A stretch of DNA of 64,000 bases from Flavobacteriaceae bacterium (GTDB lineage Bacteria > Bacteroidota > Bacteroidia > Flavobacteriales > Flavobacteriaceae), in NCBI GenBank assembly GCA_016764435.1, contig JAESRX010000064.1, positions 25,818-89,817 on the forward strand, in the 5' to 3' direction. The translations under genes and the position numbers were made by a program. The notes under the pieces are model-generated. The model was given only the letters and a program-made list of their open reading frames with translations. It was not told the origin of the DNA and did not search any database. Below are positions 5,797 through 14,925 of this stretch, one piece after another; the stretch's first letter is position 1, and each line of letters starts with the position of its first letter.

Positions 5797-6121
5797 CTGT
5801 GAAATTCACACTACTACCATCCTGTTTTTCTTCAAAATATTCCGCTACGCAATAAAGACCTCCTTTTTTTTAAAAAAAATATCACCTAAAAACTAAAGGA
5901 ATCAAATTTAAAAAACAGTTCTTGGCCATTCCAAAAGTTTTTGTATTTTTAATCAAAATTAGCAATACACGCGTTCCATTGGAAATAGCGTAATAAGCTA
6001 ATGATCTATTCAATAACTTAATGAGCATTGACTTTTACTCACTGATATAACTTGATAACTCATTTGTGTTTTTTAGATAAAAATAAAACTATATTTTTGA
6101 GTGAACTATAAAAATTACAAA

Positions 6122-7702
6122 ATGAAAAACTATCTTTTTTTACTATTACATTTACTGTTTTTAAGTCTACATACTTTTGGCCAAACAGAGATTTCTTCAA
6201 AAATTAATAAGGTCAAAGTTTTTACACAAAATGCGCAAATAACTAGAAATATATCCTTTACCACTACGTCTGGAAATCAAGAAATTGTTCTTACTGGAAT
6301 CTCCACATACATCTCTCCTTCTAGTCTACAAATACAATTCAGCAATTCCAATTCCATCTTATTATCTGCGAAATATAAAAAAAACTATTTACTTTCAAAG
6401 AGCAATAATAAACATGCAGAAAACCTTCAAAAGCAACTAGAGGACTTAAAAGACGAGTTATCTTGGCTTAATGATAAAAAAAATAGTTTAAAAGGAATGG
6501 AAGACATTCTTAATAAAAATCAAGATTTAGGGAACGGAAATTCTAGTTTTACAGCACAACAAGTTATCCAATTAAGTAATTCTTACGAACTAAAATATTT
6601 AGAAATAAGGAAACGTTTAAGAGGTTTATCAAAAAAAGAGCAGTCTCTAAAAGAAAAAGCAGCTAACATCCAAAACCAATTAAACGAAGTTAATGCTGCA
6701 TTTAATAAGCCAAGTGGAAATATAATACTTCAAATAGCATCAAAAACATCAAACATAGTAACTATTAAATGTAAGTACATGGTGAGTAATGCTGGATGGT
6801 ATCCTATATATGATATACGTTCTGAAAGTGTTAAAAAAAATATTCAACTTAATTACAAAGCAACTATTTATCAAAAAACCGGTGTAGATTGGGAAAACGT
6901 GTCAGTCATTGTCTCAACAGGGAATCCATCTCAAAATAACAATAGACCTATTTTAAACCCTTTATATCCGATCATTTACCCAAGAATAATAGACGAAAAC
7001 AAGGAGATGCTAGATGAAGTTGTTATTGTTACAAATACATCTCTTACAAAAAGTAATAATTTTGTGAAACGTACTCAAATTTCCGAAAATCAATTAAGCG
7101 TTGATTTTAAAATTTTAAACAAACAGCATATTAATAGTGACGGAAAAGAAAATTTAATAGCACTAAAATCTTACGAATTAAAGACAGATTACATTTACCA
7201 TAGTGTTCCTAAACTAAATAAAAGTGCATTCTTACTTGCCAAGATAAGTGACTGGAGCCAATATAATTTAATCGCAGGAAAAGCAAACATATTTTTTGAA
7301 GGAGGATTTGTAGGGACCTCTCAAATAAACCCACAAGTAACATCTAATTCATTATTAATTTCTATGGGACTAGACAATAGTATTGTTATTGAAAGACGCT
7401 CTATTAAAGAGTTTACTTCTTCAAAATTTATTGGAGCCAATAAAAAAGAAACTATTGGTTATGAATTCATTGTAAAGAACAAAAAATCTGTTCCAATAAA
7501 AATCGAAATCTTAGATCAAATCCCTGTATCTCAAAACAAAATGATTCAAATTGTTTTAGAAGAAAAAGGAAGTGCAAAATACTCACAGAATTCAGGGGAA
7601 TTAATTTGGACAATGGATATTAATGCAAGACAAACAAAAAAGGAACGTTTTATATATACTGTCAAATATCCAAAAAAACAACTGGTGATTGGAATTAAAT
7701 AA
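6122..7702 (+). CDS. DUF4140/DUF4139 (MuiA-type) secreted protein
   Basis: The ATG at 6122 gives signal peptide MKNYLFLLLHLLFLSLHTFGQ. Architecture is an N-terminal beta region, a central coiled coil (LQKQLEDLKDELSWLNDKKNSLKGMEDIL) and a long C-terminal beta domain, as in the TIGR02231/DUF4139 family. Confidence 0.65.
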   Translation: MKNYLFLLLHLLFLSLHTFGQTEISSKINKVKVFTQNAQITRNISFTTTSGNQEIVLTGISTYISPSSLQIQFSNSNSILLSAKYKKNYLLSKSNNKHAENLQKQLEDLKDELSWLNDKKNSLKGMEDILNKNQDLGNGNSSFTAQQVIQLSNSYELKYLEIRKRLRGLSKKEQSLKEKAANIQNQLNEVNAAFNKPSGNIILQIASKTSNIVTIKCKYMVSNAGWYPIYDIRSESVKKNIQLNYKATIYQKTGVDWENVSVIVSTGNPSQNNNRPILNPLYPIIYPRIIDENKEMLDEVVIVTNTSLTKSNNFVKRTQISENQLSVDFKILNKQHINSDGKENLIALKSYELKTDYIYHSVPKLNKSAFLLAKISDWSQYNLIAGKANIFFEGGFVGTSQINPQVTSNSLLISMGLDNSIVIERRSIKEFTSSKFIGANKKETIGYEFIVKNKKSVPIKIEILDQIPVSQNKMIQIVLEEKGSAKYSQNSGELIWTMDINARQTKKERFIYTVKYPKKQLVIGIK

Positions 7703-8391
7703 AACACTATTCACTGTTTATACTAAGCCAAAAGTAGCCCCTTAATTCCGTTGAGAAACAACCAGGGTTTTCTTCTTTTCTATTCTATTCTTATACGAAC
7801 CGTTGTCTGTATTTAAAAAATAGGTTTTAAATGAAAAACCAATCGTAATAGACAACGGTTCCAAAGAAAAACGTCCTATTTCGTAAGAAAAAACGGCTAA
7901 AAACGTATAAAAAAAAAGGGATTAACAGCCTATTAGAAGCTTGGATTTAAACAATAAAAAACAACTTGTATTATTCGCTTTTGGGAAGATAAAATTTATT
8001 TATAAATGCTCCTGAAAAAGAGATTAGACAGGGTTTAAAATACACTCCCAATATCAACAAAGGGAAGTAACTCTAGAAATTTCGAATTATTTGACAGTAT
8101 AAAAAATGCCTCACAAAAGTAATTGTTTTACCGTTACCACAGAGTCTAAAGCTTCCATACTCATTAAAAACCAAAGCATTAGTTATTCATCATAAAGACA
8201 ATTTCCAGTTGTTTTTTACGTTACTAAAAAAACAAACACATTAGCTACAAATTTTCAACTAGAGAAAAAAGATAAGATAACTAAAAGATTTCGGAATAAA
8301 CACGCAACAAAAAGGGCGCTCTTTTCAAGCCTACCCACACCATAACTAAAGTATTCAAAATCAATAAATTTAACTGTAAACAAAAAATATA

Positions 8392-9111
8392 TTGGAACTA
8401 TTTATTGAAAATGCCTTACATAATTATTCTTATCTTGTTTTATTTGGGCTGTCTTTTGGGTATTTTCTTTTTCTGTATTTCGGAATTGGAGCTTTGTTTT
8501 TATTCGCATGCAAAACCCTAGAAAAAAACAAGATACTTACTAAAATAAAATCTAAAGACGTTCCAAAAGAACAAATTTATTTTGAAATAAAACACTCCAT
8601 AAAATCAATAATCATTTTTGGTTTATCACCAATACCTATTAGCTACTTAATTAGGAATGGCAGTATAGAACTACTACCCAATACAGGATTTAATATTCTA
8701 ACAGGCATTATTTTACTCACTTTATGGAATGAAATTCATTTTTATGTAGTTCATAGGACAATGCATCAAAAATTAATGATGAAACATGTACATGTTATTC
8801 ATCATCGAACCCATATTCCTACAGTGTATTCTGTTTACAGTTTTCATTGGTTGGAAGCCTTGCTATTAAGTACGGTACCTTTAACTATTATTCCATTTAT
8901 TCCTTTTTCTATAATTGCAGTTTTTATATACCCTTTTGTGAGTATCCTATTGAATTTTGCAGGGCATTGTAATTATCGTTTTGGAAATGGAAAAGGTACT
9001 AGTTGGAAACTTTTTGGAACCTACCACAACGAACATCATAGCAGCGGAAGAAAAAACTATGGGTTTACACTTAACTTCTTGGATAAATTATTTTCCAAAC
9101 ATAACAAATAA
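8392..9111 (+). CDS. Fatty acid hydroxylase / sterol desaturase superfamily membrane protein
   Basis: Polytopic membrane protein with three His boxes: HRTMH, HVIHH and HNEHH. There is no in-frame ATG near the N-terminus, so a TTG start at 8392 is assumed. It lies 10 nt upstream of the next gene. Confidence 0.75.
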   Translation: MELFIENALHNYSYLVLFGLSFGYFLFLYFGIGALFLFACKTLEKNKILTKIKSKDVPKEQIYFEIKHSIKSIIIFGLSPIPISYLIRNGSIELLPNTGFNILTGIILLTLWNEIHFYVVHRTMHQKLMMKHVHVIHHRTHIPTVYSVYSFHWLEALLLSTVPLTIIPFIPFSIIAVFIYPFVSILLNFAGHCNYRFGNGKGTSWKLFGTYHNEHHSSGRKNYGFTLNFLDKLFSKHNK

Positions 9112-9121
9112 CAAACACTAA

Positions 9122-10972
9122 ATGAACGAAGTATATATAACAAGCTCCGGCACCTTTTTACCAAACAAAGCGATCAGCAATGAAAAAATAGACACGTTTT
9201 TAGGCCGTATAAACGGAAAAGAAAGCCGTGTAAAAGACCGGATATTAAACCAAAATGGTATTAAATCACGGTACTATGCCATCAACGAAAAACAAGAAAC
9301 AACGCATTCCAATGCGCAACTAGCAGTACATGCAGTTGAAGATGCATTGAAAAAAAGTAGTTTAAGATCTTCTGATGTTGAGCTCTTATGTACAGGAACT
9401 ACACAGGGAGACCTACCTATACCAGGTTTTGCAAGTATGGTCCATGCAAATTTAGATTTTAACAGGTGTGAAGTTGCCAGTTTTCAAAGCGTATGTGCAA
9501 GTGGCATAATGGCTTTGAAAAATGCTTATGCCCAAATTAAAAGTAATGAAAAGACAAATGCAATTTGTGTAGGAAGTGAATTAGCGAGTAGACTATTTAA
9601 AGCATCACGTTTTGAAGCACAAGAAGCAGACTCGTTACCATTTGATGCAGAATTCCTACGATGGATGCTCTCTGATGGTGCTGGTGCATTTGTATTGCAA
9701 AACAAGAAAAACGAACATGGTATTTCGCTGAAAATAGATTGGATTGATTTAAAATCCCATGCCAATGAATTTCCGGCTTGCATGTATCTTGGGAAAACCG
9801 ATAACATGAATGAAACAGAAAAAACATGGCTAGATTACCCCAGTTATGAGGAAGCTTCAAAGGCTGGTGCAATCAATTTAAAGCAAGATACCAGACTATT
9901 AAATAAGGTGATTCAAACAGGAATAGCACATTACTTTGAATTAATAGATCAAGGAAAAATAGCTAAAGATAGTATTGATTGGTTATGTTGTCATTATTCT
10001 TCCGAGGTTTTTAAGGCTCCCATTAAGGAGTTAATGCTAAAAGGAGGTGCTGCAATAACGGATGAGAAGTGGTTTAGTAATCTTAGTACAAAGGGGAATA
10101 CTGGAGCCGCTTCTATTTTTATAATGTTAGATGAATTAATGTATTCAGGAAAGTTGAAATTGGGAGATAAAATACTCTGTATGGTTCCAGAAAGCGGTCG
10201 TTTTATCACTTCATTTATGCAACTTACAGTATCGGGAAATATAGACGGAAACAAAAAGAGTTATCCCTTAAGAGAAATCAAAGCACCAGAACTCATCATT
10301 GATAAAAATGAAACCTCGGAATGGCTTATAAGAAACTTAACTCAAGTATGGATTGATTTTGAAACAGGATTACTTAAAACACCAATTATCAAAAAAATAC
10401 ATGATGGTAAGCTCAGTCTTTCAGATTATAAATTATTACTAACAGACCTTAGGCAACAAGTAATCGATGGTTCTCAATGGATATCTCGTGCCGCTTCAAA
10501 TATAGATATTGAACTATTTGACCTACGTTCTGCATTTATAAAACATACGGCAACTGAACATAAGGATTATCAAATGCTAGAAAGAAATTTCGAAGCATTA
10601 GGGGAGAATATTGATCTCATAAGAGCCGGTAACAAAAATATAGGAACCATCGCTTTAACTTCATTTATGTTTCAGCAGGCGAGTAAACCAAACCCCATTG
10701 ATTTACTAGGCGCTATGTTTATTATTGAAGGTATCGGTAAACGACTGGCTGATTACTGGGGGAATATGATAAAAAAACAATTGTCATTGAAAGACAATCA
10801 AGTCTCCTTTTTCATTTATCACGGAGTCGCTGACGAAAACCATTTTCACAACTTAGAAAAAGCATTAAACCACCCAGAAATGAATATGGAAATGGCTAAA
10901 AAAATAGTCAAAACGGCTAAAGTAACTGCCAAATTATATAAAATGCAATTAGAAGAACTAGGAAATTATTAA
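9122..10972 (+). CDS. KAS III (FabH-like) condensing enzyme fused to a heme-oxygenase-like / iron-containing redox enzyme domain
   Basis: The N-terminal ~370 aa carry the FabH-type Cys/His/Asn contexts SVCASG, CCHYSS and KGNTGAAS. The C-terminal ~220 aa are helical with ATEH..LERNFEALG, IIEGIG and HGVADENH (H-x3-D-x2-H). Confidence 0.85.
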   Translation: MNEVYITSSGTFLPNKAISNEKIDTFLGRINGKESRVKDRILNQNGIKSRYYAINEKQETTHSNAQLAVHAVEDALKKSSLRSSDVELLCTGTTQGDLPIPGFASMVHANLDFNRCEVASFQSVCASGIMALKNAYAQIKSNEKTNAICVGSELASRLFKASRFEAQEADSLPFDAEFLRWMLSDGAGAFVLQNKKNEHGISLKIDWIDLKSHANEFPACMYLGKTDNMNETEKTWLDYPSYEEASKAGAINLKQDTRLLNKVIQTGIAHYFELIDQGKIAKDSIDWLCCHYSSEVFKAPIKELMLKGGAAITDEKWFSNLSTKGNTGAASIFIMLDELMYSGKLKLGDKILCMVPESGRFITSFMQLTVSGNIDGNKKSYPLREIKAPELIIDKNETSEWLIRNLTQVWIDFETGLLKTPIIKKIHDGKLSLSDYKLLLTDLRQQVIDGSQWISRAASNIDIELFDLRSAFIKHTATEHKDYQMLERNFEALGENIDLIRAGNKNIGTIALTSFMFQQASKPNPIDLLGAMFIIEGIGKRLADYWGNMIKKQLSLKDNQVSFFIYHGVADENHFHNLEKALNHPEMNMEMAKKIVKTAKVTAKLYKMQLEELGNY

Positions 10973-10980
10973 ACTGAGCT

Positions 10981-11880
10981 ATGACAAATAAAAAAATAGA
11001 CTTATCAACGCATGATGAAAGGGATCCAAACCCTTGGTTGGCGTTACTATTAGATGATAGTATTCCTATTAATGCAACAACTAAACAGGCGTTGATGAGA
11101 GATAACTCCTCAAATTCAGTGAGGTACTTATCCCCCTTGATTCAATTTTGTTCTAAGGTGGCCATGTTTTTTATTCATATTTTTAAGTTTTTTCTTCCTA
11201 AACTAATCAATTCATCAAAGGTTTTACATCTTATTTTGTCATGGGGCCTTCGAAGATTCGTAAGCCCAGATGCCAATTTACTTATATTTAGACATTTTCA
11301 TGTAGGAACGGAGATTTTACAGTTTATAGGCAGAAACATTCCGAATATAGAATTAGTTGAAAGCCCTTTAAAACCAAAAGATTTTAAGGATGTAAAAGAT
11401 GATTTATTTTTAAATCATGATTTGAATTTGTACAATTTTGTTATTAACTTAAATCATCAATTAAAAGAAAAAGGGCTTACGATTAGCCCTCCTGAAAAAA
11501 CGAACCTAGACATGATTACAGAAGATCAATTTGAACATATAGATTTCCCTAATAAGTGGACAAATATTTTGGATCTACGCTCAGCTATTGAACTTTTCAC
11601 CCCTTTTTATCAATTATTCCTAACCTCTAATGACTTCGTAAGAGCCTCAAACTCACTACAGCTAGACGAAACAATCGCAATTTACACCGCTCAAATTTTA
11701 GGAACCCCTGGTCATTTAGGATTAATTAATAATAAACACCCGATGGTTCCTGTTAGTACTTACAGTGCTGCTTACAGACTGGTTTTACATGGTCTCGCTG
11801 CTGAAACACTACATGAAGTATTGGTAAAGATGAAGCTTCATAAAAATATTGATGGTATTCTTGTAGCTCCCAAAAAATAA
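10981..11880 (+). CDS. Hypothetical protein, third gene of the KAS III-fusion operon
   Basis: 299-aa ORF starting 8 nt after the upstream stop. It has one hydrophobic segment (SKVAMFFIHIFKFFLP) and no motif I recognise. Confidence 0.7.
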   Translation: MTNKKIDLSTHDERDPNPWLALLLDDSIPINATTKQALMRDNSSNSVRYLSPLIQFCSKVAMFFIHIFKFFLPKLINSSKVLHLILSWGLRRFVSPDANLLIFRHFHVGTEILQFIGRNIPNIELVESPLKPKDFKDVKDDLFLNHDLNLYNFVINLNHQLKEKGLTISPPEKTNLDMITEDQFEHIDFPNKWTNILDLRSAIELFTPFYQLFLTSNDFVRASNSLQLDETIAIYTAQILGTPGHLGLINNKHPMVPVSTYSAAYRLVLHGLAAETLHEVLVKMKLHKNIDGILVAPKK

Positions 11881-13733: not shown

Positions 13734-14276
13734 ATGATAGAATTAAGACCGCTTTCAAACATTCATATTTCTCCTTTTTATAAATGGATAAATGATCCTG
13801 AAGTGATCAAATACTCCTTGTCATTATTTCTTAAGATTCATACAGAAAATGATATTGAAAAATGGTATAAAGGACTCATTGAAAATGAGGAAATTCTTAA
13901 TTTCGGAATTTTTATTAAAGAAAATAACAAACTAATCGGGTATACAGGAATAGGTAATATTTCCAAAACAAACAAGTCTGGAGAGTTTTATATTTTCATT
14001 GGAGAAAAAAAAATGTGGGGAAAAGGAATTGGAACTTTAGCGACGAAGCAACTTTTAAAAATTGGTTTTTCAGAACAGCAATTGAACAGTATATTCTTGA
14101 CCGTTTCCGAACCAAATATTGGAGGAATCAAAGCCTATGAAAATGCTGGATTTAAACATGAAGGAAGATTGAGACAAGCCTGCTATAGAGATCATGAATT
14201 TCACGACAAATTAATTATGTCCATCCTAAAATCAGAATACCAAAAACAGAAAACTACAGAAATATCTGGTGAATAA
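13734..14276 (+). CDS. GNAT family N-acetyltransferase (RimJ/RimL-like)
   Basis: Acetyl-CoA binding motif WGKGIGTLATKQLL and a conserved AYENAGFKHEG tail. Confidence 0.85.
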   Translation: MIELRPLSNIHISPFYKWINDPEVIKYSLSLFLKIHTENDIEKWYKGLIENEEILNFGIFIKENNKLIGYTGIGNISKTNKSGEFYIFIGEKKMWGKGIGTLATKQLLKIGFSEQQLNSIFLTVSEPNIGGIKAYENAGFKHEGRLRQACYRDHEFHDKLIMSILKSEYQKQKTTEISGE

Positions 14277-14406
14277 ATTAAAGTAACATCGCTACTCCCC
14301 TACTTTTTTTTACAGAGCCTAGAATCCTTCCTCTGAATTCCGATACGAACCATCATCTAGACATTATATCTCAAGAAAAAAAACGCTACATTAAAAAAAA
14401 TAAATT

Positions 14407-14925
14407 ATGAACAATGAATTTCCAACCATAAAAACTGACCGGCTTTTACTCCGTGAAATAACTGATTTAGACCTTGAAAATATATTTAAAGGGCTTTCAA
14501 ACCCCCATGTTATTAAATACTATGGTGTTCATTATCAAAGTTTAGAAGCAACAAAGAAACAGCTGCTTTGGTTTGCAGATAAGCAACAAATGTGGTGGGC
14601 AATTTGTTCTCTTGATAACAAAACTTTTTACGGAGCAGGCGGCCTAAATGATATTGATAAAAAAGAAAAAAGAGCAGAAATAGGACTTTGGCTACTTCCT
14701 GATTTTTGGGGGAAAGGAATTATGAAAGAAGTCTTTCCTTTAATCTCTAATTACGGATTTAAAAAAATTAAATTAAGAAGAATAGAAGGATTTGTTGAAA
14801 CCGATAATTTGAATTGCAAAAATGCGATGTCTAAACTTGATTTTATAAATGAAGGAACACTAAAAGATTTCGAAATAAAAAACAAAAAATCAATACGTGT
14901 TGATCTCTATGTAAAAACTAATTAA
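14407..14925 (+). CDS. GNAT family N-acetyltransferase (RimJ/RimL-like)
   Basis: TDRLLLREIT N-terminus, WGKGIMKEVFPLI motif, and a NAMSKLDFINEG tail typical of Acetyltransf_3 proteins. Confidence 0.85.
   Translation: MNNEFPTIKTDRLLLREITDLDLENIFKGLSNPHVIKYYGVHYQSLEATKKQLLWFADKQQMWWAICSLDNKTFYGAGGLNDIDKKEKRAEIGLWLLPDFWGKGIMKEVFPLISNYGFKKIKLRRIEGFVETDNLNCKNAMSKLDFINEGTLKDFEIKNKKSIRVDLYVKTN

What the first reader, a model, noticed from the sequence alone, without database searches (positions are those of the whole stretch)
8392..11880. Operon of a His-box membrane hydroxylase, a KAS III::heme-oxygenase-like diiron-type fusion and an unknown protein: candidate uncharacterised lipid/small-molecule pathway
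Seen: three plus-strand ORFs are separated by only 10 nt (9112-9121) and 8 nt (10973-10980), and are preceded by a 689-nt ORF-free AT-rich leader. ORF1 (TTG start, 239 aa, polytopic) carries the three His boxes of the fatty-acid hydroxylase/sterol desaturase superfamily (HRTMH, HVIHH, HNEHH). ORF2 (616 aa) is a fusion. Residues ~1-370 are FabH/KAS III-like with intact Cys-His-Asn contexts (SVCASG, CCHYSS, KGNTGAAS). Residues ~395-616 are helical and carry ATEH..LERNFEALG, IIEGIG and HGVADENH. H-x3-D-x2-H is the C-terminal ligand pattern of heme-oxygenase-like diiron oxidases/oxygenases (the CADD, SznF, UndA, BesC class; Pfam Haem_oxygenas_2 'iron-containing redox enzyme'). ORF3 (299 aa) has no motif I recognise. 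Inference: a condensing enzyme covalently fused to an O2-activating domain, next to a membrane diiron hydroxylase, suggests a pathway that builds and then hydroxylates, desaturates or decarboxylates an acyl or beta-ketoacyl chain. The product could be an unusual lipid, alkene or signalling molecule. I know of no characterised KAS III-HDO fusion. The operon sits in the AT-richer accessory block.
Basis: partly seen in the sequence, partly recalled or inferred. Interest (0 to 1): 0.72.

Follow-up and report, generated by a model that had tools for sequence, protein, structure and literature searches.

The report
Resorcinol-type ketosynthase fused to dimetal oxidase
This is a real, widely conserved but uncharacterised gene module in which a ring-forming lipid-condensing enzyme is fused to an oxygen-activating metalloenzyme and always partnered with a protein of unknown fold, so it probably makes an unknown oxidised fatty-acid-derived ring lipid by a route not yet described.

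Summary
In detail: three tightly spaced plus-strand genes lie at 8392-11880. ORF1 is a membrane FA_hydroxylase with three His boxes. ORF2 (616 aa) is a fusion. Its N-terminal half is not a generic KAS III but a StlD/DarB-type cyclising ketosynthase (PDB StlD 2e-80; Cys125/Glu153/His291/Asn326 intact). Its C-terminal half has a heme-oxygenase-like fold closest to CADD (pLDDT 92, TM 0.77-0.85). It keeps five of the six canonical HDO metal ligands, with an invariant Asp where the sixth, a His, normally sits. ORF3 is DUF6999, with no sequence or fold match to any solved structure.

The trio is syntenic in all 26 fetched Bacteroidota loci that include the upstream region, while the flanking genes differ. 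Outside Bacteroidota, the ketosynthase, HDO and DUF6999 occur as separate, adjacent or overlapping genes without the hydroxylase. Some metagenomic proteins fuse all three. The core module is therefore KS + HDO + DUF6999, and the membrane hydroxylase (plus a desaturase in some lineages) is an accessory. No DarA aromatase or ACP is present, and I found no paper describing this architecture.

My best mechanism, which is inferred, is that fatty-acid intermediates are condensed to a carboxy-cyclohexanedione, which the fused oxidase oxidises, perhaps by decarboxylative aromatisation. Verdict: a new variant of a known kind, of moderately high interest.

The parts
8392..9111 (+). ORF1: polytopic membrane diiron hydroxylase/desaturase of the FA_hydroxylase (sterol desaturase) superfamily, 239 aa, TTG start. 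Accessory tailoring enzyme of the module.
   Evidence: Pfam PF04116 scores 77.5 bits against a cut-off of 31. His boxes lie at 121, 134 and 212, and hydrophobic segments at 13-44 and 154-193. It sits immediately upstream of ORF2 in 26/26 loci at 45-79% identity. It is absent from the split loci L028, L032 and L033.
9122..10231 (+). ORF2 residues 1-370: StlD/DarB-type (cyclising, head-to-head) beta-ketosynthase domain.
   Evidence: NCBIfam NF005293 'StlD/DarB family' scores 428.6 bits (cut-off 450) and DarB NF053539 scores 390 bits (cut-off 550), whereas FabH models score only 90-111 bits against cut-offs of 249-292. PDB StlD 5gk0 matches at 2.2e-80 over residues 2-370. C125, E153, H291 and N326 are invariant in fused and split homologues.
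10232..10306 (+). ORF2 residues about 371-395: interdomain linker. This is the position where the gene is split in non-Bacteroidota homologues.
   Evidence: The StlD alignment ends at residue 370. The first helix of the C-terminal domain model starts at about residue 397. This is a variable region of alignment A1. The stand-alone HDO genes begin here.
10307..10972 (+). ORF2 residues about 396-616: heme-oxygenase-like dimetal oxidase/oxygenase (HDO)-type domain. Candidate ligands are E479, D482 (in place of the canonical His), E536, H567, D571 and H574. Additional invariant residues are H475 and E487, with H480 near-invariant.
   Evidence: The AF2 model has pLDDT 92.3 and pTM 0.90 and is all-helical. 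Foldseek gives 3dde TM 0.83 and CADD 8vag/1rcw TM 0.77-0.85 at rmsd 2.4-2.6 A. The residues are invariant in 35 sequences at 48-85% identity. hhalign to the canonical PF14518 member P0504 gives prob 99% with ligand columns aligned. TIGR04305 CADD scores 3.7e-4.
10981..11880 (+). ORF3: DUF6999 protein, 299 aa. It is an obligatory third component of the module, all-helical, with no known fold relative and many invariant His/Asp/Glu/Arg residues.
   Evidence: Pfam PF22523 scores 392.9 bits over the full length. It lies downstream of KS::HDO in 27/27 loci and in the split loci. It is fused to KS-HDO in P0366 and P0464. The invariant residues come from A3. There is no PDB sequence hit and no PDB or BFVD fold hit. 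The model has pLDDT 71.9.
7703..8391 (+). 689-nt intergenic leader upstream of ORF1. It presumably holds the promoter and is not a conserved element of the module.
   Evidence: There is no ORF of 60 aa or more and no Rfam hit at E<=1. Sigma-70-like matches are no more frequent than in shuffles, and there is no TAnnTTTG motif. Upstream gaps are 18-882 nt in other loci, and blastn finds no similarity.

Best explanation
The three genes encode a self-contained biosynthetic module for an oxidised, fatty-acid-derived ring lipid.

Step 1 (strongly supported by homology). The N-terminal StlD/DarB-type ketosynthase domain of ORF2 loads a beta-ketoacyl thioester on Cys125. It condenses this head-to-head with a second acyl thioester (a 2-enoyl thioester in DarB/StlD). 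Both substrates are drawn from the cell's own type II fatty-acid synthesis, because the module has no ACP or activating enzyme. The product would be a carboxy-dialkyl-cyclohexane-1,3-dione or a close relative.

Step 2 (inferred). The covalently fused heme-oxygenase-like domain binds a dinuclear Fe/Mn centre and uses O2 to oxidise this labile beta-keto acid before it escapes. The most economical reaction is an UndA-like oxidative decarboxylation across C4-C5. That would aromatise the ring to a 2,5-dialkylresorcinol and so replace the missing DarA/StlC aromatase.

Step 3 (inferred). DUF6999 works in physical complex with KS-HDO. Its role is unknown. Candidates are release or hydrolysis of the thioester-bound intermediate, a second metal-dependent oxidation, or electron delivery.

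Step 4 (inferred). The membrane FA_hydroxylase (ORF1), and in some Cytophagales an extra FA_desaturase, hydroxylate or desaturate the ring or alkyl chains of the membrane-resident product.

The confidence of 0.5 is a compromise: about 0.8 for the general module assignment and about 0.35 for the specific aromatising-decarboxylation step.
For: KS identity:
- StlD/DarB model 428.6 bits, against FabH models far below their cut-offs.
- StlD crystal-structure sequence matches at 2e-80 with the Cys, His and Asn positions aligned, plus the Glu that I recall as the Michael-addition base.
- All four residues are invariant in 13 fused or split homologues.

HDO identity:
- High-confidence HO-like fold, closest to CADD.
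- E479, E536, H567, D571 and H574 align with the canonical ligands of PF14518 members and of 3dde and are invariant.

Functional coupling:
- Fusion in Bacteroidota.
- Separate, adjacent or overlapping KS, HDO and DUF6999 genes in L028, L032 and L033.
- Triple fusion KS-HDO-DUF6999 in P0366 and P0464.
- Strict synteny in all fetched loci, with no other conserved neighbour.

Lipid substrate:
- Membrane FA_hydroxylase in every Bacteroidota locus.
- FA_desaturase inserted in 5 Bacteroidota loci, and one called in the frameshifted locus L031.

Chemistry precedent (literature):
- DarB/StlD make carboxy-CHDs from beta-keto- and 2-enoyl thioesters. DarA aromatisation is coupled to decarboxylation. ACP-less DAR clusters draw on primary metabolism. 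DarA-less DarB homologues of unknown product exist (PMC6836626).
- UndA, BesC and AetD are substrate-triggered HDOs whose substrate carboxylate ligates the metal (PMC13133933; PMC7848743).

Selection: 66-89% identity for all three core parts across several Bacteroidota families implies strong purifying selection.
Against: - No product is known and no enzyme of this clade has been assayed.
- The KS scores just below the NCBIfam StlD/DarB cut-off (428.6 vs 450) and well below the DarB cut-off. The review cited notes that DarA-less DarB homologues may not make carboxy-CHDs.
- The window protein is marginally under the Pfam PF14518 gathering score (28.0 vs 28.9).
- The canonical core-helix His ligand is an Asp here, so metal content and reactivity may differ from known HDOs.
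- A conserved acidic residue on the auxiliary helix (D449) could be a 'seventh ligand' of the substrate-independent, N-oxygenase-like class. That would weaken the UndA analogy.
- The role of DUF6999 is entirely unassigned.
Confidence: 0.5

Rival explanations
1. The enzymes are the same but the chemistry differs. The KS performs a non-cyclising head-to-head Claisen condensation (OleA-, PpyS- or CorB-like), giving a 2-alkyl-3-keto acid or a pyrone. Alternatively it makes the cyclohexanedione, and the HDO then hydroxylates it, cleaves a C-C bond or desaturates it, giving for example a hydroxy-quinol, an enone or an olefin rather than aromatising it. The product would be a ketone, alkene or oxygenated dione lipid or signal.
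For: The KS falls slightly outside the curated StlD/DarB and DarB cut-offs. DarA-less DarB homologues are suspected of different reactivity (PMC6836626). Known HDOs catalyse very diverse reactions: olefin formation, C-C cleavage and hydroxylation. The non-canonical Asp ligand may tune a different reaction.
Against: The KS is far closer to StlD (274 bits) than to OleA-type (about 20 bits) or PqsD-type (30 bits) enzymes. It retains the Glu at the position of StlD Glu154 as well as the catalytic triad.
Confidence: 0.3
2. The HDO domain acts before the KS. It would oxidise or desaturate a fatty acyl precursor, for example UndA-like or by generating the 2-enoyl or otherwise functionalised partner, and this precursor is then handed to the KS for condensation.
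For: The fusion order does not dictate reaction order. UndA-type HDOs act on free fatty acids. Additional desaturases and hydroxylases in the locus show that acyl-chain oxidation is part of the pathway.
Against: Both DarB substrates (3-oxoacyl and 2-enoyl thioesters) are already available from FAS II, so no precursor oxidation is needed. Oxidative decarboxylation would destroy the carboxyl group needed for thioester activation. The module has no acyl-activating enzyme.
Confidence: 0.1
3. The C-terminal domain is a non-redox, metal-free heme-oxygenase-fold module (TenA/PqqC-like binding or hydrolase domain, or a purely structural dimerisation or substrate-holding domain).
For: The Pfam score is marginal. 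TenA and heme oxygenases also appear among fold matches at TM 0.64-0.75. One canonical His ligand is missing. Some distant relatives (P0429, P0428) lack several of the ligands.
Against: Five canonical ligand positions plus D482, E487 and H475 are invariant over 48-85% identity and across phyla. The best fold matches with an assigned function are the dimetal enzyme CADD, at rmsd 2.4-2.6 A. No TenA/PqqC Pfam or NCBIfam hit was found at E<=0.1, whereas the CADD family model hits at 3.7e-4.
Confidence: 0.05
4. ORF2 is simply a housekeeping FabH (KAS III) initiating fatty-acid synthesis, as many database records name it, and the neighbours are unrelated.
For: Sources name homologues 'beta-ketoacyl-ACP synthase III'.
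Against: FabH models score 90-111 bits against cut-offs of 249-292, while StlD/DarB scores 428.6 bits. There is an obligatory fusion or adjacency with HDO and DUF6999. The genomic position varies and flanks are not conserved.
Confidence: 0.02

Closest known systems
DarAB(C) / StlCD dialkylresorcinol-stilbene pathway (Pseudomonas, Photorhabdus, Chitinophaga/flexirubin, cyanobacterial bartolosides)
   Same: The ketosynthase is of the same distinctive StlD/DarB class (2e-80 to the StlD structure, same Cys/His/Asn/Glu residues). Like the bartoloside and microcarbonin clusters it lacks its own ACP and is accompanied by fatty-acid desaturase/oxygenase-type tailoring genes.
   Different: There is no DarA/StlC aromatase in the window or in any related locus. 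Instead the KS is fused to an HDO-type domain and always paired with DUF6999. The KS scores below the curated DarB and StlD/DarB cut-offs. The product is unknown.
UndA / BesC / AetD: substrate-triggered heme-oxygenase-like diiron oxidases that oxidatively decarboxylate or cleave carboxylate substrates
   Same: HO-like helical fold. It has the E (core helix 1), E (core helix 2) and HxxxDxxH (core helix 3) ligand pattern. The proposed substrate carries a carboxylate beta to an abstractable H, as in UndA.
   Different: Sequence identity is only about 12-17%. UndA is a weaker fold match (TM 0.67) than CADD. The core-helix-1 His is an invariant Asp. The domain is fused to a ketosynthase. The reaction has not been demonstrated.
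CADD (Chlamydia CT610, self-sacrificing pABA synthase) and Sden_3740 (PDB 3dde)
   Same: These are the closest solved structures (TM 0.77-0.85, rmsd 2.1-2.6 A). 3dde is the only PDB sequence reached by the family profile (2e-7), with the E, E and HxxxDxxH positions aligned.
   Different: CADD is a stand-alone protein in folate metabolism using its own Tyr as substrate. 3dde has no known function. Neither is linked to a ketosynthase or to DUF6999. The CADD family model scores only 20 bits against a cut-off of 200.
SznF (HDO domain fused to a cupin domain)
   Same: It is a precedent for an HDO domain covalently fused to a second catalytic domain that acts in the same pathway.
   Different: The partner domain and the chemistry are different (N-oxygenation of an amino acid, followed by N-N bond formation).
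OleA / PpyS / CorB-MxnB head-to-head condensing KAS III-like enzymes
   Same: [quoted passage not shown]
   Different: The relationship is much more distant (OleA-type PDB hits at E about 3e-3, against 2e-80 for StlD). None is fused to an oxidase.

Membership tests
StlD/DarB family beta-ketosynthase (NCBIfam NF005293; DarB NF053539) | Score at or above the curated family cut-off | tested here: not met
   NF005293 scores 428.6 bits against a cut-off of 450. NF053539 (DarB) scores 390.3 bits against 550. This is very close to the first cut-off, and NCBI names the Zobellia orthologue 'StlD/DarB family beta-ketosynthase' (P0030). It is best regarded as a sister subfamily.
StlD/DarB family beta-ketosynthase | Catalytic Cys-His-Asn triad plus the Glu aligned with StlD Glu154 (its role as Michael-addition base is recalled from memory of Mori et al. 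2016 and was not verified here) | tested here: met
   C125, H291, N326 and E153 align with StlD C126, H302, N335 and E154. The 5gk2 H302A variant confirms the register. All four are invariant in 13 homologues.
StlD/DarB family beta-ketosynthase | Adjacent DarA/StlC aromatase gene | tested here: not met
   No fourth conserved gene family lies within +/-8 kb in 27 loci. ORF1, ORF3 and the downstream gene hit no DarA model in NCBIfam. The Pfam-annotated neighbours of the split loci show none.
StlD/DarB family beta-ketosynthase | Forms a carboxy-cyclohexanedione from 3-oxoacyl and 2-enoyl thioesters | not testable with these tools
   Requires an enzyme assay or heterologous expression.
Heme-oxygenase-like dimetal oxidases/oxygenases (HDO; Pfam PF14518) | Seven-helix heme-oxygenase-like fold | tested here: met
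   The AF2 model has pLDDT 92.3. Foldseek gives CADD TM 0.77-0.85, 3dde 0.83, heme oxygenases 0.64-0.71 and UndA 0.67.
Heme-oxygenase-like dimetal oxidases/oxygenases (HDO; Pfam PF14518) | Six conserved ligands: Glu + His on core helix 1, Glu on core helix 2, HxxxDxxH on core helix 3 (PMC13133933) | tested here: inconclusive
   Five of the six are present and invariant (E479, E536, H567, D571, H574). The core-helix-1 His position aligns with an invariant Asp (D482). H475, H480 and E487 nearby are conserved and might substitute. The geometry could not be measured because no coordinates were returned.
Heme-oxygenase-like dimetal oxidases/oxygenases (HDO; Pfam PF14518) | Pfam gathering score | tested here: inconclusive
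   The window protein scores 28.0 bits against GA 28.9. Fused homologues pass: P0365 34.1, P0371 41.8, P0412 40.9 and P0366 31.1 bits. hhalign to a canonical member gives 99% probability.
Heme-oxygenase-like dimetal oxidases/oxygenases (HDO; Pfam PF14518) | Binds a dinuclear Fe/Mn cofactor and activates O2 | not testable with these tools
   Needs metal analysis, spectroscopy and turnover assays.
FA_hydroxylase / sterol desaturase superfamily (Pfam PF04116) - ORF1 | Pfam score above cut-off; HX3H, HX2HH and HX2HH boxes; membrane-spanning segments | tested here: met
   77.5 bits against a cut-off of 31. The boxes lie at 121, 134 and 212, and hydrophobic segments at 13-44 and 154-193. It is not a member of the OlsE equivalog (29 bits against a cut-off of 475).
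DUF6999 (Pfam PF22523) - ORF3 | Full-length match above cut-off | tested here: met
   392.9 bits against a cut-off of 27, covering profile positions 1-275 of 275.
FabH / KAS III (TIGR00747, NF006829) | Score at or above the curated cut-off | tested here: not met
   89.8 bits against 292.1, and 110.8 bits against 249.
TenA / PqqC-type heme-oxygenase-fold proteins (metal-free) | Sequence-family match and absence of dimetal ligands | tested here: not met
   No TenA or PqqC family hit at E<=0.1. The ligand residues are invariant. TenA structures are weaker fold matches than CADD.

The most novel reading that the evidence does not exclude
The fused HDO domain catalyses a reaction type new to the HDO superfamily. 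This would be O2-dependent oxidative decarboxylative aromatisation (or another ring oxidation) of a ketosynthase-bound or channelled carboxy-cyclohexanedione, using a non-canonical carboxylate-rich dimetal site (Asp in place of His). It would define a DarA-independent route to dialkylresorcinol-type lipids that is widespread in Bacteroidota and present in other phyla. DUF6999 would be a new-fold enzyme, possibly a metalloenzyme, that is an obligatory subunit of this complex.
Probability: 0.25. Interest if true: 0.8.

Novelty: new variant of a known kind. Interest (0 to 1): 0.66.

Why it matters
HDO enzymes are a young superfamily in which nearly every characterised member has revealed a new oxidative reaction. 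None so far is linked to a ketosynthase.

StlD/DarB ketosynthases make the resorcinol and cyclohexanedione cores of bacterial pigments (flexirubin), signals (Photorhabdus DAR/CHD quorum sensing) and antibiotics. 'DarA-less' homologues are an acknowledged open question.

This module offers three things:
- a concrete, testable candidate for how such systems finish their product;
- a first functional context for DUF6999, which has thousands of sequences and no fold relative;
- a natural two-domain system for studying substrate channelling between a condensing enzyme and an O2-activating centre.

Its unusually high conservation across marine and soil Bacteroidota (66-89% identity across several families) suggests a physiologically important lipid or signal that current lipidomics has not assigned.

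Tried and rejected
1. Regulatory RNA or conserved leader. Rfam gives no hit at E<=1, promoter and terminator scans are no better than shuffles, and the leader is not conserved in length or sequence. Rejected as part of the feature.

2. Conserved wider gene cluster (ACP, DarA, transporter, regulator). All-vs-all clustering of ORFs of 80 aa or more from 27 loci found only the trio in more than 8 loci. The window flanks (DUF4139, DUF418, GNATs) are not conserved.

3. Function of DUF6999 from structure. The AF2 model is only moderate (pLDDT 71.9), and Foldseek against PDB and BFVD gave nothing below E = 0.5. The profile against PDB sequences gave only noise. No transmembrane segment was found by hydropathy.

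4. Direct check that the ligands converge on a dimetal site. This was not possible because model coordinates are not exposed. I substituted profile alignments to 3dde and to canonical PF14518 members.

5. Literature. Searches for DUF6999; DarB/ketosynthase/heme-oxygenase-like; StlD/cyclohexanedione/Bacteroidetes; HDO networks and fusions; PF14518; and zobelliphol/dialkylresorcinol all failed to find this architecture. A source for the role of StlD Glu154 was not found in the held library, so that point rests on memory.

6. One look-up (P0166, Paenibacillus) found no contig on record. L029, L030 and L031 are frameshifted long-read assemblies and were used only qualitatively.

Full report
**Observation**

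The intergenic gaps are 10 and 8 nt. Upstream lies a 689-nt stretch with no ORF of 60 aa or more. All the quoted motifs are present.
- ORF1 is a clear FA_hydroxylase-superfamily membrane protein: Pfam 77.5 bits, His boxes at 121/134/212, and hydrophobic segments at 13-44 and 154-193.
- ORF2 carries ketosynthase domains in residues 1-370 and a marginal Haem_oxygenas_2 match in residues 486-606, at 28.0 bits against a gathering score of 28.9.
- The exact ORF2 and ORF3 proteins are on record from a Flavobacteriaceae MAG as hypothetical proteins.

**What the ketosynthase is**

The N-terminal domain is not a generic FabH.
- NCBIfam places it next to the StlD/DarB family: NF005293 scores 428.6 bits (cut-off 450) and DarB scores 390 bits (cut-off 550). 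FabH models reach only 90-111 bits against cut-offs of 249-292.
- Against PDB sequences, the Photorhabdus stilbene/cyclohexanedione synthase StlD matches at 2e-80 over residues 2-370. The next best hit, a FabH, is at 4e-15.
- The alignment register can be checked with the deposited H302A variant (5gk2). It puts ORF2 C125, H291 and N326 on the StlD triad. It puts E153 on StlD Glu154. I recall that Glu as the base for the Michael addition, but could not verify this in the held literature.
- All four residues are invariant in ten fused and three split homologues.

According to the review PMC6836626:
- DarB/StlD enzymes have lost chain elongation in favour of head-to-head Michael/Claisen condensation of a 3-oxoacyl and a 2-enoyl thioester, giving a carboxy-cyclohexanedione.
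- DarA/StlC then aromatises this product with concomitant decarboxylation.
- ACP-less clusters draw their substrates from primary fatty-acid synthesis.
- 'DarA-less' DarB homologues of unknown product are known.

**What the C-terminal domain is**

A 35-sequence alignment at 48-85% identity (A1) gave an AlphaFold2 model with pLDDT 92.3 and pTM 0.90, made of nine helices.

Foldseek against the PDB returned:
- the structural-genomics protein Sden_3740 (3dde) at TM 0.83;
- the dimetal enzyme CADD (8vag, 1rcw) at TM 0.77-0.85 and rmsd 2.4-2.6 A;
- then heme oxygenases, TenA proteins and UndA at TM 0.64-0.75.

Two alignments place the family's invariant residues on the canonical ligand positions. 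One is the family profile against 3dde, the only PDB sequence it reaches (2e-7). The other is hhalign against a canonical PF14518 protein, P0504 (probability 99%). The mapping is:
- E479 on the core-helix-1 Glu;
- E536 on the core-helix-2 Glu;
- H567-x3-D571-x2-H574 on the core-helix-3 HxxxDxxH motif.

The exception is the His of the canonical E-x2-H pair, which is an invariant Asp (D482) here. H475, E487 and (about 90% conserved) H480 on the same helix are also conserved.

HDO papers define the family by those six residues. They distinguish substrate-triggered members, whose substrate carboxylate serves as a seventh ligand (UndA, BesC, AetD), from members with an intrinsic seventh Glu (SznF, RohS) (PMC13133933; PMC7848743).

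The domain therefore has the HDO fold and five of the six defining ligands, with a conserved carboxylate-for-histidine change. I could not measure ligand geometry because coordinates are not exposed.

**Conservation and context**

The 616-aa fusion is 66-89% identical across Flavobacteriaceae, Cyclobacteriaceae, Marivirga, Pedobacter, Saprospiraceae and other Bacteroidota.
- In 27 loci fetched from species-representative genomes, FA_hydroxylase, KS::HDO and DUF6999 occur in that order in every locus that includes the upstream region (26 of 26). DUF6999 follows in all 27.
- All-vs-all clustering of flanking ORFs found no other family in more than eight loci. The ones that did recur are antisense shadows of ORF2 or local synteny among close relatives.
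- None of the window's own neighbours (DUF4139/4140, DUF418/YeiB, two GNATs) is conserved.
- In five loci a 260-275-aa FA_desaturase (Pfam 59-75 bits) is inserted between ORF2 and ORF3.

The HDO-type domain defines a small, distinct family. It has about 320 clusters at 50% identity among 1.84 billion representatives, 50 of them at E<=1e-30. Both fused (about 616-644 aa) and stand-alone (about 223-260 aa) forms occur.
- Three metagenomic loci (L028, L032, L033) carry separate genes for the KS (362-374 aa), HDO (223-243 aa) and DUF6999 (294-301 aa). The genes are adjacent or overlapping, 44-52% identical to the window proteins, retain all catalytic residues, and have no FA_hydroxylase.
- Two proteins (P0366, 868 aa; P0464) are KS-HDO-DUF6999 triple fusions.
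- Sources label relatives from Acidobacteriota, Alphaproteobacteria and Paenibacillus.

These fused and split forms argue strongly that the three parts act together and that KS + HDO + DUF6999 is the evolutionary core. The membrane hydroxylase, and sometimes a desaturase, is a lineage-specific tailoring addition.

**DUF6999**

The family is large: at least 3,330 clusters at 90% identity match ORF3.
- Across members down to 44% identity, five His (83, 105, 146, 253, 270), six acidic residues (D147, D198, E204, D218, D229, E275) and three Arg are invariant. This looks like an active or metal-binding site, but it matches no motif I can name.
- The AF2 model is all-helical but only moderately confident (pLDDT 71.9).
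- Neither the PDB nor BFVD contains a fold match (best E 1.5 and 0.5), and the profile finds no PDB sequence.
- Hydropathy predicts no transmembrane helix.

Its function remains unknown. That it belongs to the complex is well supported.

**Mechanism**

Shown by homology:
- a StlD/DarB-type condensing domain with intact catalytic residues;
- a HO-fold domain with a conserved dimetal-type ligand set;
- a membrane diiron hydroxylase;
- no ACP, no acyl-activating enzyme and no DarA.

Inferred:
- The KS takes 3-oxoacyl and 2-enoyl intermediates from FAS II and forms a carboxy-cyclohexanedione.
- The fused oxidase acts on this labile beta-keto acid. The fusion would serve to capture the intermediate before spontaneous decarboxylation.
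- The simplest reaction consistent with known HDO chemistry is UndA-like oxidative decarboxylation across C4-C5. After tautomerisation this yields the 2,5-dialkylresorcinol. That is the net transformation attributed to DarA/StlC, which is absent here.
- ORF1, and the desaturase where present, then modify the lipid product.

I give about 0.8 to the general statement that this is a KS-HDO-DUF6999 module making an oxidised fatty-acid-derived condensation product. I give about 0.35 to the specific aromatising-decarboxylation step. The overall confidence figure for the best explanation (0.5) is a compromise between these two.

The rivals, in order of weight, are:
- different KS or HDO chemistry on the same scaffold (0.3);
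- the HDO acting upstream of the KS (0.1);
- a metal-free HO-fold domain (0.05);
- a housekeeping FabH (0.02).

**Comparison with what is known, and novelty**

The nearest known system is the DarAB/StlCD pathway. This module shares its ketosynthase class but not its aromatase, and adds two components never associated with it.

The nearest known HDOs are CADD and 3dde (by structure) and UndA, BesC and AetD (by proposed chemistry). None of these is ketosynthase-linked. A March 2026 list of characterised HDO functions contains nothing like it. Seven literature searches found no mention of DUF6999 or of this architecture.

I class it as a new variant of a known kind: a DarB-type pathway with a new oxidative partner and an orphan third subunit. 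It is not categorically new.

**Incidental features**

The 689-nt leader has no Rfam match and no enrichment of promoter-like sites. It is not conserved in other genomes. The 'AT-rich accessory block' is real as a compositional feature of roughly 3-15 kb, but the operon itself is GC-richer than its flanks.

Noticed in passing
window 7797-7861: A perfect 12-bp inverted repeat (GAACCGTTGTCT ... AGACAACGGTTC) with a 41-nt AT-rich spacer lies about 95 nt downstream of the DUF4139 gene stop. It is unique in the window. It is not a canonical terminator, because the loop is long and there is no T-run. It could be a protein-binding palindrome or a remnant of a mobile element.
   Followed up: partly
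L011 9848-10630; L013 7154-7936; L014 9847-10641; L020 9863-10690; L027 9848-10630: In several Cyclobacteriaceae, Flammeovirgaceae and Bacteroidia genomes a 260-275-aa membrane FA_desaturase (HRSLTH / HRFHH / HKDHH boxes; Pfam 59-75 bits) is inserted between the KS::HDO gene and the DUF6999 gene. A desaturase is also called in the frameshifted non-Bacteroidota locus L031.
   Followed up: partly
window 6101-7702; L033 11512-13074: A DUF4139/DUF4140 protein sits directly upstream of the operon in the window. A weak DUF4139 gene also lies two genes downstream of DUF6999, on the opposite strand, in the distant split locus L033. It is not seen in the 27 Bacteroidota loci, so this is probably coincidence.
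   Followed up: no
L012 (contig JBLIBC010000040.1, labelled Glaciecola sp. MAG): A 14-kb contig binned as a gammaproteobacterium carries the full trio at 57-78% identity to the Flavobacteriaceae proteins. This is either mis-binning of a Bacteroidota contig or recent horizontal transfer.
   Followed up: no
P0429, P0428 (distant relatives of the HDO domain, 28-29% identity): These stand-alone relatives keep the family's RQQ..W..RAAS and MFIIEG signatures but have lost several of the putative metal ligands. In P0429, for example, E479 is replaced by K and the HxxxDxxH motif is absent. They are possibly non-catalytic paralogues.
   Followed up: no
window 9526-10254, minus strand: Three antisense ORFs of 86-93 aa lie inside ORF2. 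Their counterparts recur in other loci only because the sense strand is so conserved, so they are shadow ORFs and not genes.
   Followed up: yes
window 13734-14925: Two tandem ORFs of 180 and 172 aa lie downstream of the DUF418/YeiB-like gene. I labelled them GNAT-type acetyltransferases but did not scan them against any family library. They are not conserved next to the module in other genomes.
   Followed up: no
L029, L030, L031: In these long-read metagenome contigs the module's genes are fragmented. Examples are a KS C-terminal piece of 153 aa and DUF6999 pieces of 129-239 aa. This is most likely due to assembly frameshifts rather than pseudogenisation. The gene order there is KS-HDO-(desaturase)-DUF6999-FA_hydroxylase, so the hydroxylase lies downstream rather than upstream.
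   Followed up: no
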